Positions 1,023 to 8,360 of a stretch of DNA of 47,271 nucleotides are shown here, in pieces. The notes under the pieces are model-generated. The model had not been told where the DNA came from. It was given only the letters and a program-made list of their open reading frames with translations, and did no database searches. A program made the position numbers and the translations under genes. Source of the DNA: Candidatus Bathyarchaeota archaeon (lineage in GTDB: Archaea; Thermoproteota; Bathyarchaeia; 40CM-2-53-6); NCBI GenBank assembly GCA_963706285.1, contig CAVPLU010000017.1, positions 1 through 47,271 of the forward strand, read 5' to 3'. Numbering within the stretch: position 1 is the first letter of the stretch; every line of letters begins with the position of its first letter.

Positions 1023-2461
1023 ATGGCGAAAGTGACCAAAATAGTCGAAAAAAGTAAGACAAAGATCGTTTGCACCATCGGTCCGTCCACATCTTCGGAA
1101 CAGATGCTGGTCCGACTGATAGATGCGGGAATGAATGTTGCCCGTTTGAATTTCGCGCATGGCGCCTTGGCGGAGAAAATCACTTGGCTACGGCGAATTC
1201 GGATGGCTGCGAGCAGGGCTAGAGTTCCAGTAGGCGTGTTGGTCGACTTGCCAGGCCCAAAGATAAGAGTAGGCGAAGTCTGGCCTGAGCCTACTATCCT
1301 ACGGGAGGGCTCTCAACTTACTCTAACGGGTCGCCGTGTAGTGGGAAACTCGAAGCTCCTCTCCATAAGTCATCCATCAATTCTGCGGGGGCTGTCCACG
1401 GGTGACTCGATTTCGCTCGAAGATGGAACGATCGAGCTGGCAGTGGAGCATGCAACCAGCGGTGAAGCTGTCTGCCGGGTTATTAGAGGAGGCGCCTTGT
1501 TCTCCGGCAAAGGCGTGAATCTGCCAGGAAAACAACTACGAGTCAAGGCACCAACAAAGAAAGATGTCGCTTCATGCGGTTTGCCCTGAAAAACGGCGCC
1601 GACTTCATCGGTTTATCATTCACGAAAAATGCGGACGATGTCCTTGCGGCCAAACGCGTCGCTATGCAGACAGGACGCAGGCATGGATTATCGCAAAGAT
1701 CGAAAACCGTCAGGCAGTTGAAAATTTCGACGAGATCCTACAGGAAGCTGACGGCGCAATGGTCGCCCGAGGAGATTTAGGTGTCGAGATGGGAATTGAC
1801 GACATTCCTCTCTTGCAGAAGACAATCATTCGGAAGGCAAACGCAGCTGGCAAACCTGTGATCACTGCAACTCAGATGCTAGAATCCATGGTGGAGAATC
1901 CCACACCAACACGGGCAGAGGCAAGCGATATCGCAAACGCCATATTTGACGGGACCGACGCGATCATGCTATCTGAAGAAACAGCAGTCGGAAAATATCC
2001 GGTCGAAGCGGTCAAAGTGATGAAGAAGGGTGGCGGCAGCTACGGAGAAGGCGCTTCCGTATAGCGCACTCTTGGACTTGAGACGAGCTCTTGTCGGAAG
2101 AATCGTGCAGGACGCAATCAGCTTCTCCGCTTGCGACGTTGCCCACGAGTTGGGCGCTAGCTGCATCGTGGCACATACGAGAACTGGCCTGACGGCACAT
2201 AGAGTATCCAAATTCAGATCTTCTGTACCGATCATCGCATTAACATACAGTACACCTGTCATGAATAGGCTCTCATTGCTCTGGGGGGTATACCCTCGAC
2301 AAGTGAAGAAGCTACGGACCACGGCAGAAATATTCTCTGCCGCCGAGCGCGCTGCACTTGCGAGTCGAATTGCTCGTAGAGGAAGCAGGATAGTTGTCGT
2401 CTGTGGAGACCCATCCACCCCAAGTGGAACAACAGATCTTCTTCGGGTGCAAACCATCTGA
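1023..2461 (+). CDS. pyk: Pyruvate kinase, split over several ORFs by frameshifts (~1575, ~1680, ~2030)
   Basis: [66 protein letters not shown] motifs and the C-terminal alpha/beta domain (SLLWGVYP). Confidence 0.95.
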
Positions 2462-2527: not shown

Positions 2528-2935
2528 CTAGACATCAACCACGGAGAGTTTGAGTTGAGTTACTCCTCGTGTCTTCATGAGTCTCTTTGCAAGTTCTTGG
2601 ATTCTCGTTGTTTGGCCTCTGACCGAGACGATCTCTAGGCATCTTGATTCGTCAAGATGAATGTGAGTCGTGGAGTTCACTACATCTCGATAGTGGTGTT
2701 GAATATCGACTAGGGCTTCCTGCAGGCCATGGGGCCGATGACTGTAAGTGAACAAGATGGCTCCCACGCCAGCTTTTCCCTTCTCAATTGTCCATGTGTA
2801 TTCGGTGATGAAGTTCGTCATCGCAGTCTGCAGTGCACGTGATCTATCCGAGTAACCCATCTTACTGATGACTTCGTCAAAGCGGCTCAACAGCACGGGT
2901 GAGACTGAGAAGCTTGTCCTTTCGACCTTTGCCAT
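2528..2935 (-). CDS. nikR: Nickel-responsive ribbon-helix-helix regulator NikR
   Basis: N-terminal RHH (RTSFSV...LLSRFDEVISKMGYSDRSRALQ) and a metal-binding domain with QHH...THIHLDESRCLE, matching the NikR His/His/His/Cys ligands. GGTGAGG SD upstream. Confidence 0.9.
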   Translation of the reverse strand: MAKVERTSFSVSPVLLSRFDEVISKMGYSDRSRALQTAMTNFITEYTWTIEKGKAGVGAILFTYSHRPHGLQEALVDIQHHYRDVVNSTTHIHLDESRCLEIVSVRGQTTRIQELAKRLMKTRGVTQLKLSVVDV

Positions 2936-2998
2936 TAGTCATACCTCACCTTCTCGGCAATTCCGAGAGTTGCTATGCTTATCGCCGACCACTCGCCA

Positions 2999-3026
2999 GT
3001 ATTAACGTACCGAGTTCTTTTAATAC
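2999..3026. promoter_or_regulatory. Putative NikR operator GTATTA-N16-TAATAC overlapping a TATA-like box (TTTTAATA, 3018-3025)
   Basis: Perfect 6-bp inverted repeat with a 16-bp spacer, the same geometry as the E. coli NikR site GTATGA-N16-TCATAC. It lies between nikR and the divergent transporter gene. Confidence 0.8.
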
Positions 3027-3060
3027 GCGTGGTATTACCAATTGGGCAGTTGGTATTACC

Positions 3061-3553
3061 GTGAAATATGCGAGCCGGTTCGTGGCCTTCACAGCGATCA
3101 TGACTGCCATTGCAGTAGTGCTCAGCGCCTTGTCGGTGCCTTTCGTGTTTGGGCTTCGGATTCACTTCTTCCAAGTCGCAATAATGCTTGCCGGCGTCAT
3201 AGGAGGACCCGTATCAGGGCTGATCGCGGGAAGCGTAGGCGGAGTCTACATGTCTGCGTTAAGGTCTGACCCCACGATCATTGTAGGAAACGCCTTCTTG
3301 GGCCTATTTACTGGGCTATTCGTGCGCAAGATGCGGCCGTGTGCTGGCTGGGATTCTAGCCTGGGTCTTGATTCAGGCACCTTGGCTCTACTTGACTGGA
3401 ACATACATCCTTAATGTCCCAGGATTCGTGATGCAGACAATCCTTGTCACCCTGACCGTTGAGGACGTCATCTGCGCGGTAGTCGCAGATGTTCTTCAGA
3501 GCCGTTTCCATCTCAGAGAGATGGTATTTCCCAAAGGCCACAAGTGCACAACC
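3061..3553 (+). CDS. ECF-type transporter S-component-like membrane protein (frameshift ~3340; 3' end uncertain, reads in frame into FmdE)
   Basis: MKYASRFVAFTAIMTAIAVVLS...IHFFQVAIMLAGVIGGPVSGLIAGSVGG is a typical S-component N-terminus, followed by ~5-6 hydrophobic segments. Confidence 0.7.
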
Positions 3554-4169
3554 ATGAAGAAGTCTACACATTTCAGCAGAAATCTCCTCAAGTCAGCCAC
3601 GGATTTTCACGGTCACTTGGGTCCATACCTCGTTCTCGGGCTCCGGATGGGCCTTTTTGCTAAGAGGACACTGAAGTCTCGCGGACTCCATGACATATCT
3701 GCCACGGTTTGGACAAAGCGGTCCCCACCAGAGTCATGCCTACTCGATGGTATCCAAGTCTCCAGCGGTTGCACTCTCGGCAACGGCTAACTTGCGAGTA
3801 AAGAACGCATCTCGGATACGAGCGAGATTCCGCAAGGGGAATCATTCACTACTTATGAAGCCAACTGAGGAGACTGCGAAAATGCTATGCTCGGTATCCG
3901 GACGAACAACTGAGAATGAGCTTGAGTCGCTGGCAATCCACCTGGGCTCAATGCCTGATAGCGACCTGTTTCGTCGTGAAACATGGCATACACACTATAG
4001 TTCGATCTACAAAGTAGTTGTATTCAACCTACAATCCGTGGCTCTTTTCTGGCGCCAAGCTCTTATTGAGACAAGAGTGACTGCTGAAGAGTACTTCGTT
4101 CGCTTCTATCCGCCGACCTTTGTGGAAAACACAAAACTTGCAGTGGAAGGCCTGGGGTTGATGTTCTAG
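3554..4169 (+). CDS. fmdE: FmdE-family protein (frameshift ~3788; the FmdE-like sequence ends near 3975, true stop uncertain)
   Basis: FHGHLGPYLVLGLRMG, SCLLDGIQVSSGCTLGNGNL and a C-terminal SMPDSDLF are FmdE family motifs. Confidence 0.85.
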
Positions 4170-6531: not shown

Positions 6532-8360
6532 TCAGGTGACCGTGACGCTCTTCGCTAGGTTTCGGGGTTTGTCAGGATCTAATCCTCTTTCAACGGCCAT
6601 GTGGTAAGCGAACAGTTGAAGCGGGACAACATAGGTAAGGGGTGAAAGAAGTGGATGTAGATCTTTTGGCATTTCTATGAAGTCGTCTGAGAGTTCCTTG
6701 ATCTCTCTATCTCCCTCTTCAAGAACCGATAGAATCGAAGCGCCTCTGGCCTTCATCTCCATGATGTTTCCAATAATTGCTTTCCTGCTCGTATCGTTCG
6801 GGGCAATGAAGACGACTGGCACTCCAGGCTCGATGAGGCTGATGGGTCCGTGCTTGCTTTCGCCCGCAGGGTACGCTAGTGAAGGAACGCAGGCGATCTC
6901 AAGCAGCTTCAGCCTAGCTTCCAGGGCTGTGGCTGAATTGATTCCTCTTCCAAGAAAGATCATCAAGCGTGTTCCGGAGTACTTCTTGGCTAGTTCTCTA
7001 ATCTTCGGATCCTGCTTTGTGATGACTTGCTCAACAACATCCGGTACCCGATGCAACGCGCGTAGGAACTCCTCCGATTCCGTATGCCCCATCTTGCCTC
7101 GTTTCTCGCCCAGGGTACACGCTAACTGTGCAAGAACCGCCAGCTGACTCGTGAAGGTCTTCGTCGCGGCCACGCCTATCTCCGGTCCACTTTGCTGCAT
7201 CACGAAGGCTCTGGAAACGCGTGTCAGGGTGGAACCCAGCATGTTGGCGACTGCGAGAACTGTTGCTGCTCTCATCCTTGCATGCTCAACGCATTGTAGA
7301 ACATCCATGGTCTCACCCGACTGGCTTACCGCGAGTACGCAGGAGTCGACGCCGATGCAGTCTCCGTACTGTGGGACGAACTCGCTCGCGACTGATGGCA
7401 CCGTGTCTCTTCTCGCCGCGTTCGTGAACATGTATGATGCGGCGAGACAAGCGTGGTAGGATGTTCCAGCGGCGATCATGTACACTTCTCTTGCTCGGTC
7501 CATCAACGCTGCCATGACATCAACGTACGGTTGCTGTAGCCGGAGTACCTGCCTGAGGCTCTTGGGTTGCTCGTGGATTTCTTTGAGCATGAAATGGTCG
7601 TAGCCGCCTTTCTCCGCCATCTCCGGACTCCAATCCACGGTGAAGGGCGGTCTCTCAACTGTCGCTCCATCATTGATCCTCCTAAGATGCACTTGTCGCG
7701 GTTCGAGGATCGCTATCTCCCCGTTCTTCAGTTCGATGAATGTGTGCGTCCTGGAAAGAAGCGCTGTGACATCGGAGGCGCAGTAGACGCATTCTCCCTC
7801 GATTCCTACAACGAGCGGGCTCTCGTTCCGCGCTAGGACTATTCTGTTCGGTTCGTTCGAGCAGATTACCGCTAATCCGTATGAACCTTCTAGCTCGTCT
7901 TGTCGCCGCAAGCACTGCCTCTTCGAGCTTGCCCCGATTTCTTGTACTCTTCCTCGACTAGGTGTGCGATGACTTCGGTGTCTGTCTTGCTTTCGAATGT
8001 GTGTCCCTGTTCGATGAGTTCTTGCTTCAACTCGAGGAAGTTCTCAATGATGCCGTTGTGTACAAGGGCTATGGATCTCGTGCAGTCCAGTTGAGGATGC
8101 GCGTTCTCCTTGCTGGGATTGCCATGCGTAGCCCATCTCGTATGACCGATCCCTACTGATCCTGGGAGGTCATCGAGGTTCAGTCGAGCGTGAACTTCCG
8201 CTATCTTCCCAGCGTCCTTCTTGAACTCAATATGACCATCAAATATAGTCGCGATCCCAACGGAATCATAGCCTCGGTATTCGAGGCATCTCAGACTTTC
8301 ATGAAGCATGGGTGCTACAGACATACCTGATTTGAGAACTGCCCCAGCTATCCCGCACAA
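6532..8360 (-). CDS. glmS: Glutamine--fructose-6-phosphate aminotransferase (frameshift ~7900-7920)
   Basis: N-terminal MCGIAG (Cys1 nucleophile), [42 protein letters not shown] and a C-terminal [11 protein letters not shown]. Confidence 0.96.

What the first reader, a model, noticed from the sequence alone, without database searches (positions are those of the whole stretch)
2528..3975. NikR operator in front of a non-NikM ECF S-component and FmdE: candidate new nickel-regulated uptake/handling unit
Seen: nikR is divergent from an S-component-like gene and fmdE, and a perfect GTATTA-N16-TAATAC site (2999-3026) overlaps the TATA box of the transporter gene. Established: NikR binds 6-bp half-sites spaced by 16 bp, and Ni/Co ECF systems use NikM/CbiM, which begin with an MH(I/L) metal-binding N-terminus. 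This protein starts MKYASRF and looks more like a vitamin-type S-component, and no T or A components are nearby. Inference: a NikR-repressed S-component that may bind Ni, a Ni chelate or a metal cofactor, with FmdE as a cytoplasmic metal-handling partner.
Basis: partly seen in the sequence, partly recalled or inferred. Interest (0 to 1): 0.7.

Follow-up and report, generated by a model that had tools for sequence, protein, structure and literature searches.

The report
Nickel-regulated S-component and FmdE operon
An archaeon places a small transporter-like membrane protein and a metal-binding FmdE protein under its nickel sensor NikR, where relatives keep known nickel importers, so this pair is probably an undescribed nickel uptake unit.

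Summary
nikR (2528-2935, minus strand) is divergent from a two-gene operon: an ECF S-component-like gene (3061-3557) and fmdE (3554 to about 4017). The perfect GTATTA-N16-TAATAC site is at 2999-3026.

The site conserved across lineages is a second box, GTATTAC-N14-GTATTAC (3032-3059). It lies between a TATA-like box and the start codon. It is the only such site in the 2.13 Mb genome.

The same box precedes 16 of 29 loci of this protein family in Bathyarchaeia. It also precedes 6 of 6 nikM and 2 of 2 NiCoT loci in relatives. This genome has [NiFe] hydrogenases, but no NikM, NiCoT or second NikR was found.

The membrane protein folds as an ECF S-component (pLDDT 95.6) and is not NikM-like. A solitary EcfAA'T module lies on another contig. 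FmdE keeps three of the four published Zn/Ni ligands.

The genes carry four +1 frame breaks. Other runs' contigs lack the extra base at the three covered breaks, so assembly error is likely.

A second S-component-fold family ("X"), found in 111 of 401 genomes, shows the same NikR-box and FmdE linkage.

NikR control is well supported. Nickel import is inferred, not shown.

The parts
2528..2935 (-). nikR, 135 aa: ribbon-helix-helix N-terminus plus nickel-binding C-domain. It is the only NikR_C hit in the genome.
   Evidence: Pfam NikR_C 1.3e-26. A single genome hit. The G009 orthologue passes NCBIfam PRK01002 (126.8 bits, cut-off 111) and PRK04460 (106, cut-off 105). The sequence shows H-x11-HIH-x5-C (QHHY...THIHLDESRC). 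I recall this as the pattern of the E. coli high-affinity Ni site.
2999..3026 (.). NikR box 1: perfect dyad GTATTAA-N14-TTAATAC. Its right arm lies in the TATA-like box of the S-component gene. Its left arm reads TTAATAC on the nikR strand, 64 nt before the nikR ATG.
   Evidence: Identical arms with changed spacers in G001, G008 and G009. Absent in the sister-genus loci L005 and L006.
3018..3025 (+). TATA-like box TTTTAATA (inferred archaeal promoter element).
   Evidence: In one search an A/T-rich TTTAATA/TTTAAATA/TTTATATA-type stretch sits 3-6 nt before the left arm of box 2 in the box-bearing loci. Promoter function is inferred, not tested.
3032..3059 (.). NikR box 2: GTATTAC-N14-GTATTAC. 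This is one central base away from the dyad GTATTAC-N14-GTAATAC. It ends 1 nt before the start codon and is the lineage-wide conserved operator.
   Evidence: It is the only hit in 2,134,064 nt at 1 or fewer mismatches. A box lies upstream in 16 of 29 family loci and nowhere else in 85,369 nt of those loci. The same box precedes 6 of 6 nikM loci and 2 of 2 NiCoT loci.
3061..3557 (+). ECF S-component-like membrane protein gene, about 164 aa once corrected. GTG start (ATG in relatives). Extra base near 3339. A second +1 break is inferred at 3536-3539. The TGA stop overlaps the fmdE ATG (ATGA).
   Evidence: AF2 model of the G008 orthologue: pLDDT 95.6. The top 31 Foldseek rows are all ECF S-components. 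A contig of run X2 leaves out 1 base at 3339.
3554..4017 (+). fmdE-like gene, core domain only with no zinc ribbon, about 150 aa once corrected. Extra bases near 3784-3787 and 3972. The end is uncertain.
   Evidence: Pfam PF02663: 60.3 bits for the window piece and 75.6 bits for the orthologue. PDB 2gvi 1.1e-7 and 2glz 9.9e-5. tblastn pieces 3554-3829 and 3780-3971. Bases left out at 3784/3787 and 3972 in other runs' contigs.

Best explanation
This is a NikR-controlled nickel-acquisition operon of a Bathyarchaeia archaeon.

When nickel is plentiful, Ni-NikR binds box 2 (3032-3059), which lies between the TATA-like box and the start codon. In this genus it also binds box 1 (2999-3026), which lies over the TATA-like box. 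Binding shuts off a two-gene, translationally coupled operon, and possibly the divergent nikR gene as well.

When nickel is scarce the operon is expressed. Its first product is a 6-helix membrane protein with the ECF S-component fold. It captures Ni(II), or a small Ni complex, at the outer face. It most likely delivers the metal with the help of the shared EcfA-A'-T module encoded on contig C13.

Its second product is a core-domain FmdE protein with a His-x-His plus Cys site. It takes over or buffers the metal in the cytoplasm for the [NiFe] hydrogenases.

Shown here: gene identities, fold, the conserved operator and its equivalence to the boxes before nikM and NiCoT in relatives, linkage across lineages, and the lack of hits to other known nickel importers in this genome.

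Inferred: repression by NikR, nickel as substrate, use of the ECF module, and metal hand-over to FmdE.
For: OPERATOR
- Box 2 is unique in the genome: 1 hit in 2.13 Mb.
- At 2 or fewer mismatches to the dyad with N14, 2 of 3 genome hits are this locus.
- A box lies within 200 nt upstream of 16 of 29 family loci, with 0 hits elsewhere in 85,369 nt of those loci. These loci come from at least 9 families of Bathyarchaeia.
- Arms are conserved while spacers vary.
- The motif is a variant of the published NikR signal GTGTTAC-[N13/14]-GTAACAC. That paper also reports reversed half-sites and tandem sites (PMC545781, passages read).

POSITIVE CONTROL
- The same box precedes 6 of 6 nikM loci (their proteins start MHIPDG) and 2 of 2 NiCoT loci beside nikR in relatives.

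LINKAGE
- NikR lies inside 11 of 29 family loci, FmdE inside 12 of 29, and TM1506 inside 6 of 29.
- One locus (G039) has nikR, S-component, fmdE and TM1506 together.
- An ATGA stop/start overlap couples the S-component and fmdE genes in orthologues.

NEED FOR AN IMPORTER
- [NiFe] hydrogenase large-subunit hits lie at three places.
- CbiM/NikM, NicO and family X gave no hit in this 89% complete genome.
- 0 of the 7 relatives' genomes with the NikR-linked S-component have a CbiM hit, against 14 of all 61.

FOLD
- AF2 pLDDT 95.6 and pTM 0.90.
- The first 31 Foldseek rows are all S-components, including RibU, ThiT, FolT, BioY, NikM and CbiM.
- A solitary EcfA-A'-T module lies at C13:42298-44755.

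FMDE
- The solved homologue 2glz binds a Zn/Ni mixture through His15, His17, Cys19 and Cys55. Most PF02663 genes lie beside metal transporters (PMC2954224, passages read).
- In the linked FmdEs, His, His and the Cys55 equivalent are invariant: 14 of 14 and 13 of 13.
Against: - No experiment of any kind supports this. Regulation and substrate rest on comparative genomics alone.
- The protein lacks the N-terminal Met-His metal site of NikM/CbiM. It resembles vitamin-type S-components more: Foldseek TM-scores are 0.67-0.72 against 0.52-0.57 for NikM/CbiM.
- It passes Pfam's PF07155 model, which is named for RibU.
- 13 of 29 family loci show no box. Ten of these have neither NikR nor FmdE, and several pair or fuse with TM1506. 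[quoted passage not shown] The family's general substrate could therefore be organic.
- No residue pattern separates box-bearing members from box-less ones. His35, Gln38 and Glu134 are shared.
- The box label changes at least 3-4 times on the tree.
- Box 2 is not a true dyad. Its centre base is asymmetric.
- The fourth FmdE ligand (Cys19) is Gly in 12 of 14 linked FmdEs.
- Peptide/nickel-type ABC importers were not searched for, so another nickel route may exist.
- The mutual exclusion with CbiM is not statistically strong. About 1.6 overlaps would be expected by chance, and related genomes are not independent.
- Both genes are frame-broken in this assembly.
Confidence: 0.6

Rival explanations
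1. The unit imports a nickel chelate or another nickel-linked organic molecule (a metallophore-Ni complex or a Ni cofactor), not free Ni(II). FmdE, and TM1506 where present, process or release the cargo in the cytoplasm.
For: The fold and sequence are closer to vitamin-type S-components than to NikM/CbiM. There is no N-terminal His. The family fuses with TM1506 (P0003, P0009), a domain predicted to bind a nucleotide-like ligand (PMC3239186). An unknown ligand sits 1.8 A from the conserved Cys in the solved FmdE structure 2gvi (PMC2954224).
Against: No chelator-synthesis genes were seen beside the locus. NikR boxes elsewhere in these lineages precede importers of the free ion, nikM and NiCoT. 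The invariant His, Gln and Glu could equally bind the bare ion.
Confidence: 0.2
2. NikR controls the operon, but the cargo is not nickel. It could be another metal (Co, Zn) or a vitamin whose need rises when nickel enzymes fail, making this a nickel-sparing response.
For: The PF07155 model is passed. Box-less family members exist in genomes without any NikR hit (G055, G058). The solved FmdE structures held mainly Zn. NikR regulons are known to include non-transport genes: hydAB2 was predicted in PMC545781.
Against: This operon is the only box-bearing target in the genome. That is the usual position of the nickel importer. It sits exactly where nikM or NiCoT sit in relatives. No FMN, THI or B12 riboswitch is present.
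Confidence: 0.1
3. In this organism the operon is a decaying pseudogene pair. The four frame breaks are real, and only the relatives have a working system.
For: There are four +1 breaks within about 950 bp. One of them (3536-3539) was not covered by any laid contig.
Against: Pyruvate kinase and glmS in the same window are also split. The window shows single-base indels against G001 inside pyk as well. Contigs from other runs lack the extra base at 3339, 3784/3787 and 3972. All breaks are of one kind, an extra base, as a systematic sequencing error would produce.
Confidence: 0.07
4. The palindromes are chance or serve only as A/T-rich promoter elements. NikR adjacency is coincidental.
For: Box 1 overlaps a TATA-like stretch. 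GTATTAC is A/T-rich, and the spacers in many relatives are A/T-rich too.
Against: There is 1 hit in 2.13 Mb and 0 hits in 85 kb of flanks, against 16 of 29 upstream regions. The 14-nt spacing is fixed. The same box precedes nikM, NiCoT and family X. Box-less loci lie in genomes without a NikR hit, or in one (G048) where nikR sits beside nikM.
Confidence: 0.03

Closest known systems
NikMNQO / CbiMNQO (ECF-type Ni/Co importers under NikR)
   Same: It lies next to nikR behind the same GTRTTAC-N13/14-GTAAYAC box. The membrane protein has the S-component fold: NikM 4m58 and CbiM 5x3x appear among the Foldseek rows. EcfA/T genes are present in the genome.
   Different: There is no PF01891 hit and no Met-His N-terminus. 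No NikN/K/L partner was noted among the ORFs of the locus. There are no adjacent Q/O genes. A cytoplasmic FmdE is co-translated instead.
Group II ECF vitamin S-components (RibU, ThiT, FolT, BioY)
   Same: Size (164 aa), six helices and best structural matches at TM 0.6-0.72. PF07155 is passed. The gene is solitary, with a shared EcfAA'T elsewhere. An A-x3-A pattern lies in helix 1 of the family consensus. That this motif contacts EcfT is recalled, not tested.
   Different: It falls below every curated NCBIfam S-component cut-off. It is controlled by a NikR box and not a riboswitch. It is paired with FmdE or TM1506.
FmdE / PF02663 core-domain proteins (PDB 2glz, 2gvi)
   Same: The Pfam model is passed. 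The His-x-His and the Cys55-equivalent ligands are conserved. It is adjacent to a metal transporter, as noted for most family members (PMC2954224).
   Different: Cys19 is replaced by Gly (HGHLGP) in 12 of 14 linked members. There is no C-terminal zinc ribbon. It is not linked to formylmethanofuran dehydrogenase genes. The link to NikR was not found in print in my searches.
NiCoT (HoxN/NixA-type) permeases under NikR
   Same: They occupy the same divergent position from nikR, with the same box, in sister genomes G016 and G033.
   Different: NiCoT is an unrelated 8-helix secondary carrier with no FmdE partner.
TM1506 (DUF1893) with a '5TM protein predicted to form a channel' (Iyer et al. 2011)
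   Same: This is probably the same membrane family. S-component-TM1506 fusions (P0003, P0009) and neighbours were found here.
   Different: That paper describes bacterial loci and proposes NAD/ADP-ribose sensing. In the passages I read it mentions neither NikR, nor FmdE, nor nickel. Its supplementary data could not be seen.

Membership tests
NikR regulator | C-terminal nickel-binding domain (PF08753) behind a ribbon-helix-helix N-terminus, at full-length NikR model scores | tested here: met
   NikR_C 1.3e-26 for the window protein. The G009 orthologue passes PRK01002 (126.8 against 111) and PRK04460 (106 against 105).
NikR regulator | High-affinity Ni ligands H-x11-H-x-H-x5-C (E. coli H76, H87, H89, C95; recalled) | tested here: met
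   The translation reads ...IQHHYRDVVNSTTHIHLDESRC... The pattern itself is recalled and comes from no call.
NikR operator | 27-28 bp inverted repeat of 7-bp arms with an N13/14 spacer, related to GTGTTAC-N13/14-GTAACAC (PMC545781) | tested here: met
   Box 1 is a perfect dyad, GTATTAA-N14-TTAATAC. Box 2, GTATTAC-N14-GTATTAC, is one base off the dyad. The literature consensus was read.
NikR operator | Conserved before nickel genes in related genomes | tested here: met
   16 of 29 family loci, 6 of 6 nikM loci and 2 of 2 NiCoT loci, and 27 of 30 family-X loci.
NikR operator | Ni-dependent binding by NikR | not testable with these tools
   This needs EMSA or footprinting.
ECF transporter S-component | Small six-helix membrane protein with the S-component fold | tested here: met
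   AF2 pLDDT 95.6. Foldseek rows 1-31 are all S-components, TM up to 0.72. PF07155 at 40.3 bits against a cut-off of 26.7.
ECF transporter S-component | An EcfA-A'-T energising module present in the genome | tested here: met
   A solitary A-A'-T module lies at C13:42298-44755. EcfT is found in 60 of 61 relatives, so this does not discriminate.
ECF transporter S-component | Physical and functional dependence on the ECF module | not testable with these tools
   An A-x3-A pattern in helix 1 is seen in the family consensus. Its role is recalled.
NikM/CbiM | PF01891 match and an N-terminal Met-His metal-binding end | tested here: not met
   No PF01891 hit in the genome. The N-terminus is M-K-Y-A-S-R-F. 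The relatives' true NikM starts MHIPDG.
RibU (riboflavin S-component) | Curated RibU-level model and an FMN riboswitch or riboflavin gene context | tested here: not met
   Only the broad Pfam model is passed. NCBIfam gives only the FolT family at 24.8 bits against 60. There is no Rfam hit. The context is nikR and fmdE.
FmdE (PF02663) | Pfam core-domain match | tested here: met
   60.3 bits for the window piece and 75.6 bits for the orthologue, cut-off 22.9. PDB 2gvi at 1.1e-7.
FmdE (PF02663) | Four metal ligands His, His, Cys, Cys of the solved core domains | tested here: not met
   His, His and the Cys55 equivalent are kept in 14 of 14. The Cys19 equivalent is Gly in 12 of 14 linked members, including the window's HGHLGP.

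The most novel reading that the evidence does not exclude
S-component-fold membrane proteins paired with FmdE, and sometimes TM1506, form an undescribed and widespread archaeal nickel-acquisition system under NikR. It exists in two sequence-unrelated versions. The PF07155-like family seen here was found in 47 of 401 Bathyarchaeia genomes. A Pfam-less family X was found in 111 of 401. If true, FmdE and DUF1893, both long without a known function, would get their first concrete role as cytoplasmic partners of metal import.
Probability: 0.45. Interest if true: 0.8.

Novelty: new variant of a known kind. Interest (0 to 1): 0.68.

Why it matters
[quoted passage not shown] That survey noted organisms with nickel enzymes but no known importer.

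Bathyarchaeia are abundant sediment archaea. Here, many of their genomes carry NikR boxes in front of S-component-fold proteins with FmdE rather than in front of known importers.

If these are nickel importers, three things follow:
- A gap in archaeal metal homeostasis is filled.
- The substrate range of non-NikM ECF S-components is widened to a metal.
- The function of FmdE becomes directly testable. [quoted passage not shown]

The case also gives a clean archaeal operator for studying NikR repression at a TATA-proximal site.

Tried and rejected
- Complex prediction of the S-component alignment (A2) with the FmdE alignment (A3) gave no verdict (score 0.00, mark 0.32). It counts neither for nor against binding.
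- Other genome sites at 2 or fewer mismatches to the dyad (C9:9285, C9:16080, C14:94262, C16:17741, C4:276650, C12:4350). The two C9 sites lie beside cNMP-binding and adenylate-cyclase-like genes and were dropped as chance. The other four regions were fetched but not examined further.
- TM1506 in the own genome (C4:11014) lies beside deoC with no S-component, so it is not part of this locus.
- hhalign of family X against the S-component family gave probability 2.3%. No sequence homology is claimed. Only the predicted folds agree.
- Phyletic complementarity with CbiM (0 of 7 against 14 of 61) is too weak for a test and the genomes are related. It is used only as a pointer.
- EcfT presence (60 of 61) does not discriminate.
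- ESM Atlas gave only leads: PF07155 clusters, a 'BioX family' cluster and ThiW. They were not followed.
- Sequencing runs: no run held half of the sampled words, and the best held 0.30. Contigs from an RNA library (X20) lie on 3040-3224, 3720-3861 and 3896-4047. DNA can be present in such libraries and contigs show no transcript ends, so this is no proof of expression. The break at 3536-3539 was not covered. It could instead be a real in-frame S-component-FmdE fusion in this strain.
- A contig of run X2 also leaves out one base at 4006, in the fmdE tail. This is why the end of fmdE is given as uncertain.
- The sigma-70 promoter scanner was not used because the organism is an archaeon.
- HupE/UreJ and peptide/nickel ABC importers were not searched.

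LITERATURE. NikR+FmdE gave 1 paper, unrelated to this link by its search listing. FmdE+nickel+transporter gave 6 papers; I read passages of two of them and saw the rest only as search listings, and none of this linked NikR to FmdE. TM1506/DUF1893/PF08973 gave 7 papers. Rodionov et al. 2006 (J Bacteriol 188:317) could not be read and may hold archaeal NikR regulon predictions.
Full report
WHAT IS THERE

The window is contig C17 of a 2.13 Mb, 21-contig genome that is 89% complete. Record titles of close relatives name them as Candidatus Bathyarchaeia MAGs.

nikR (2528-2935, minus strand, 135 aa) matches NikR_C at 1.3e-26. It is the only NikR_C hit in the genome.

Divergent from it, after a 125-bp spacer, a gene starts with GTG at 3061. 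Its first 93 codons match ECF S-component models: PF07155 at 32.2 bits against a cut-off of 26.7, plus 5TMR-LYT and ECF_trnsprt. The frame then shifts by +1 near 3339 and continues.

Orthologues end ...FPKPTSAQP with a TGA that overlaps the ATG of fmdE (ATGA). The window reaches that reading only with a second +1 shift at 3536-3539.

fmdE starts at 3554 and matches PF02663 at 60.3 bits. It is broken near 3784-3787 and 3972.

THE FRAME BREAKS ARE PROBABLY ASSEMBLY ERRORS

- Pyruvate kinase and glmS in the same window are also split.
- Against the 93%-identical G001 contig, the window has an extra base at 3340 and indels inside pyk.
- Contigs of three other metagenome runs leave out exactly one base at 3339, 3784/3787 and 3972.
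- The break at 3536-3539 was not covered. It could be a genuine in-frame fusion.
- I therefore used intact orthologues from G008 and G009, by reference, for searches and folds.

THE OPERATOR

As 7-bp arms it is GTATTAA-N14-TTAATAC.

Five bases further on lies GTATTAC-N14-GTATTAC (3032-3059). It ends one base before the start codon. Because GTATTAC and its complement GTAATAC differ only at the centre base, this is one change from a dyad.

Alignment of orthologous spacers shows:
- Box 1 has perfect arms and changed spacers in the four loci of the window's genus. It is missing in the sister genus.
- Box 2 is kept in all loci checked, including a distant one (G039: GTGTTAC-N14-GTATTAC).
- An A/T-rich TTTAATA-type stretch precedes it in the box-bearing loci. 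I read this as the archaeal TATA box (inference).

A scan for two 7-mers from {GTATTAC, GTGTTAC, GTAATAC, GTAACAC} spaced by 14, with at most one mismatch, gave these results:
- One hit in the whole genome, and it is box 2.
- A hit within 200 nt upstream of 16 of 29 family loci.
- No hit in the other 85,369 nt of those loci.

The published NikR signal of delta-proteobacteria is GTGTTAC-[N13/14]-GTAACAC. Reversed half-sites and tandem sites were also reported (PMC545781, passages).

POSITIVE CONTROL AND DISPLACEMENT

NikR occurs in 49 of 61 relatives. In seven of them it sits beside a CbiM-family gene whose product starts MHIPDG, a true NikM. In G016 and G033 it sits beside NiCoT (PF03824, 325 bits for the G016 copy).

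All 6 nikM loci fetched and both NiCoT loci carry the same box. So the box marks nickel importers in this lineage, and the S-component/fmdE pair occupies the same slot.

The own genome has [NiFe] hydrogenase hits at three places. It has no CbiM, NicO or CdhC hit, and no tblastn match to NikM, NiCoT or family X of relatives.

None of the 7 relatives' genomes with the NikR-linked S-component has a CbiM hit, against 14 of all 61. This is suggestive, not significant.

THE MEMBRANE PROTEIN

- The full-length orthologue scores 40.3 bits on PF07155.
- It scores only 24.8 bits on NCBIfam's FolT-family model, whose cut-off is 60.
- A profile search of 1.84 billion representatives found a small family: 307 at E 1e-3 or better and 68 at 1e-10 or better.
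- Two members are fused to TM1506/DUF1893.
- AlphaFold2 on a 50-row alignment gave pLDDT 95.6.
- The first 31 Foldseek rows are all ECF S-components. RibU, ThiT, FolT, BioY and the 4hzu S subunit score TM 0.6-0.72. NikM and CbiM score 0.52-0.57.
- His35 is invariant family-wide and Gln38 nearly so. Glu134 stands in the consensus and was invariant in the six-row alignment. From the model's helix order they lie at the outer face or in helix 6 (inference).
- No riboswitch is present.
- A solitary EcfA-A'-T module lies on C13, as in group II ECF systems.

LINKAGE ACROSS BATHYARCHAEIA

47 of 401 genomes have a family member. In 29 short loci, with about 1.5 kb of flank each, NikR is present in 11, FmdE in 12 and TM1506 in 6.

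Ten of the 13 box-less loci have neither NikR nor FmdE. One of these (L063) has only 19 nt of upstream sequence, so it could not be assessed. Two box-less relatives (G055, G058) have no NikR hit at all.

On a tree of 24 members, boxes occur in both deep halves. The window's clade (6 rows, support 100/98) is all box-bearing.

FMDE

The orthologue matches PDB 2gvi and 2glz. In those structures His, His, Cys and Cys bind Zn or a Zn/Ni mixture. The authors note that most PF02663 genes lie beside metal-transporter genes (PMC2954224, passages).

In 14 FmdEs linked to these membrane proteins, the two His and the Cys55 equivalent are invariant. Cys19 is Gly in 12 of them, giving HGHLGP. This would leave an open coordination position, as might suit metal transfer (inference).

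A SECOND FAMILY

Beside nikR in G003, G038 and G044 lies another 176-aa membrane protein, 'X'. It has no Pfam hit and no profile similarity to the first family.

- It occurs in 111 of 401 genomes.
- Of 30 loci, 27 have the box, 23 have FmdE, 17 have NikR and 2 have TM1506.
- Its model (pLDDT 94.0) aligns best to S-components. VIA Z is 15.6 to 5edl and 12-14 to ThiT, RibU and BioY. Foldseek E-values are weak, 0.055 at best.
- The pairing 'S-component fold + FmdE under a NikR box' is therefore general in this class. The window holds its rarer version.

VERDICT

NikR control of this operon is well supported (about 0.85). Nickel import is the best reading (about 0.6) but is untested. Use of the ECF module and metal hand-over to FmdE are plausible inferences.

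In my searches, the link between NikR and FmdE or this S-component family was not found in print. Rodionov 2006 and several supplements could not be read.

Noticed in passing
L111-L140 (e.g. L111:1501-2028, G038); also L087, L088, L090: Family 'X' is a 176-aa membrane protein with no Pfam hit, found in 111 of 401 Bathyarchaeia genomes. Of 30 loci, 27 have a NikR box directly upstream, 23 have FmdE and 17 have NikR. The predicted fold resembles ECF S-components (VIA Z 15.6 to 5edl). It was not found in the window's genome.
   Followed up: partly
P0003 (306 aa), P0009 (288 aa); loci L052, L055, L056, L067, L059, L061: The S-component family is fused to, or neighbours, TM1506/DUF1893. The TM1506-only loci carry no NikR box. 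This is probably the '5TM protein' that Iyer et al. 2011 noted beside TM1506.
   Followed up: partly
window 1023-2461 and 6532-8360: Pyruvate kinase is split over three frames and glmS over two. Together with the four breaks in the operon, this points to single-base insertion errors throughout the assembly.
   Followed up: partly
G000 contigs C6:22500-29000 and C7:3500-9500: Two near-identical copies of an ECF locus (S-like gene, fused A-A', T, then a sugar kinase) lie on separate contigs. This suggests strain duplication or contamination; the genome's contamination estimate is 7.5%.
   Followed up: no
L132 and L135: Some family-X loci carry two FmdE genes flanking X. One is longer, with an open frame of about 230-245 aa. 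L132 has three NikR-like boxes.
   Followed up: no
window 3040-3224, 3720-3861, 3896-4047: Contigs from one metatranscriptome library (run X20) of a related strain lie on the S-component and fmdE genes. The start codon there reads ATG (G to A at 3061). This is not proof of transcription.
   Followed up: no
L107 (G011), 1787-2761: nikR there is divergent from a 325-aa His-rich membrane protein (HSYDADH..., HEHVHRH...) with no Pfam hit, and a NikR-like box lies in between. It may be another nickel-linked membrane protein.
   Followed up: no
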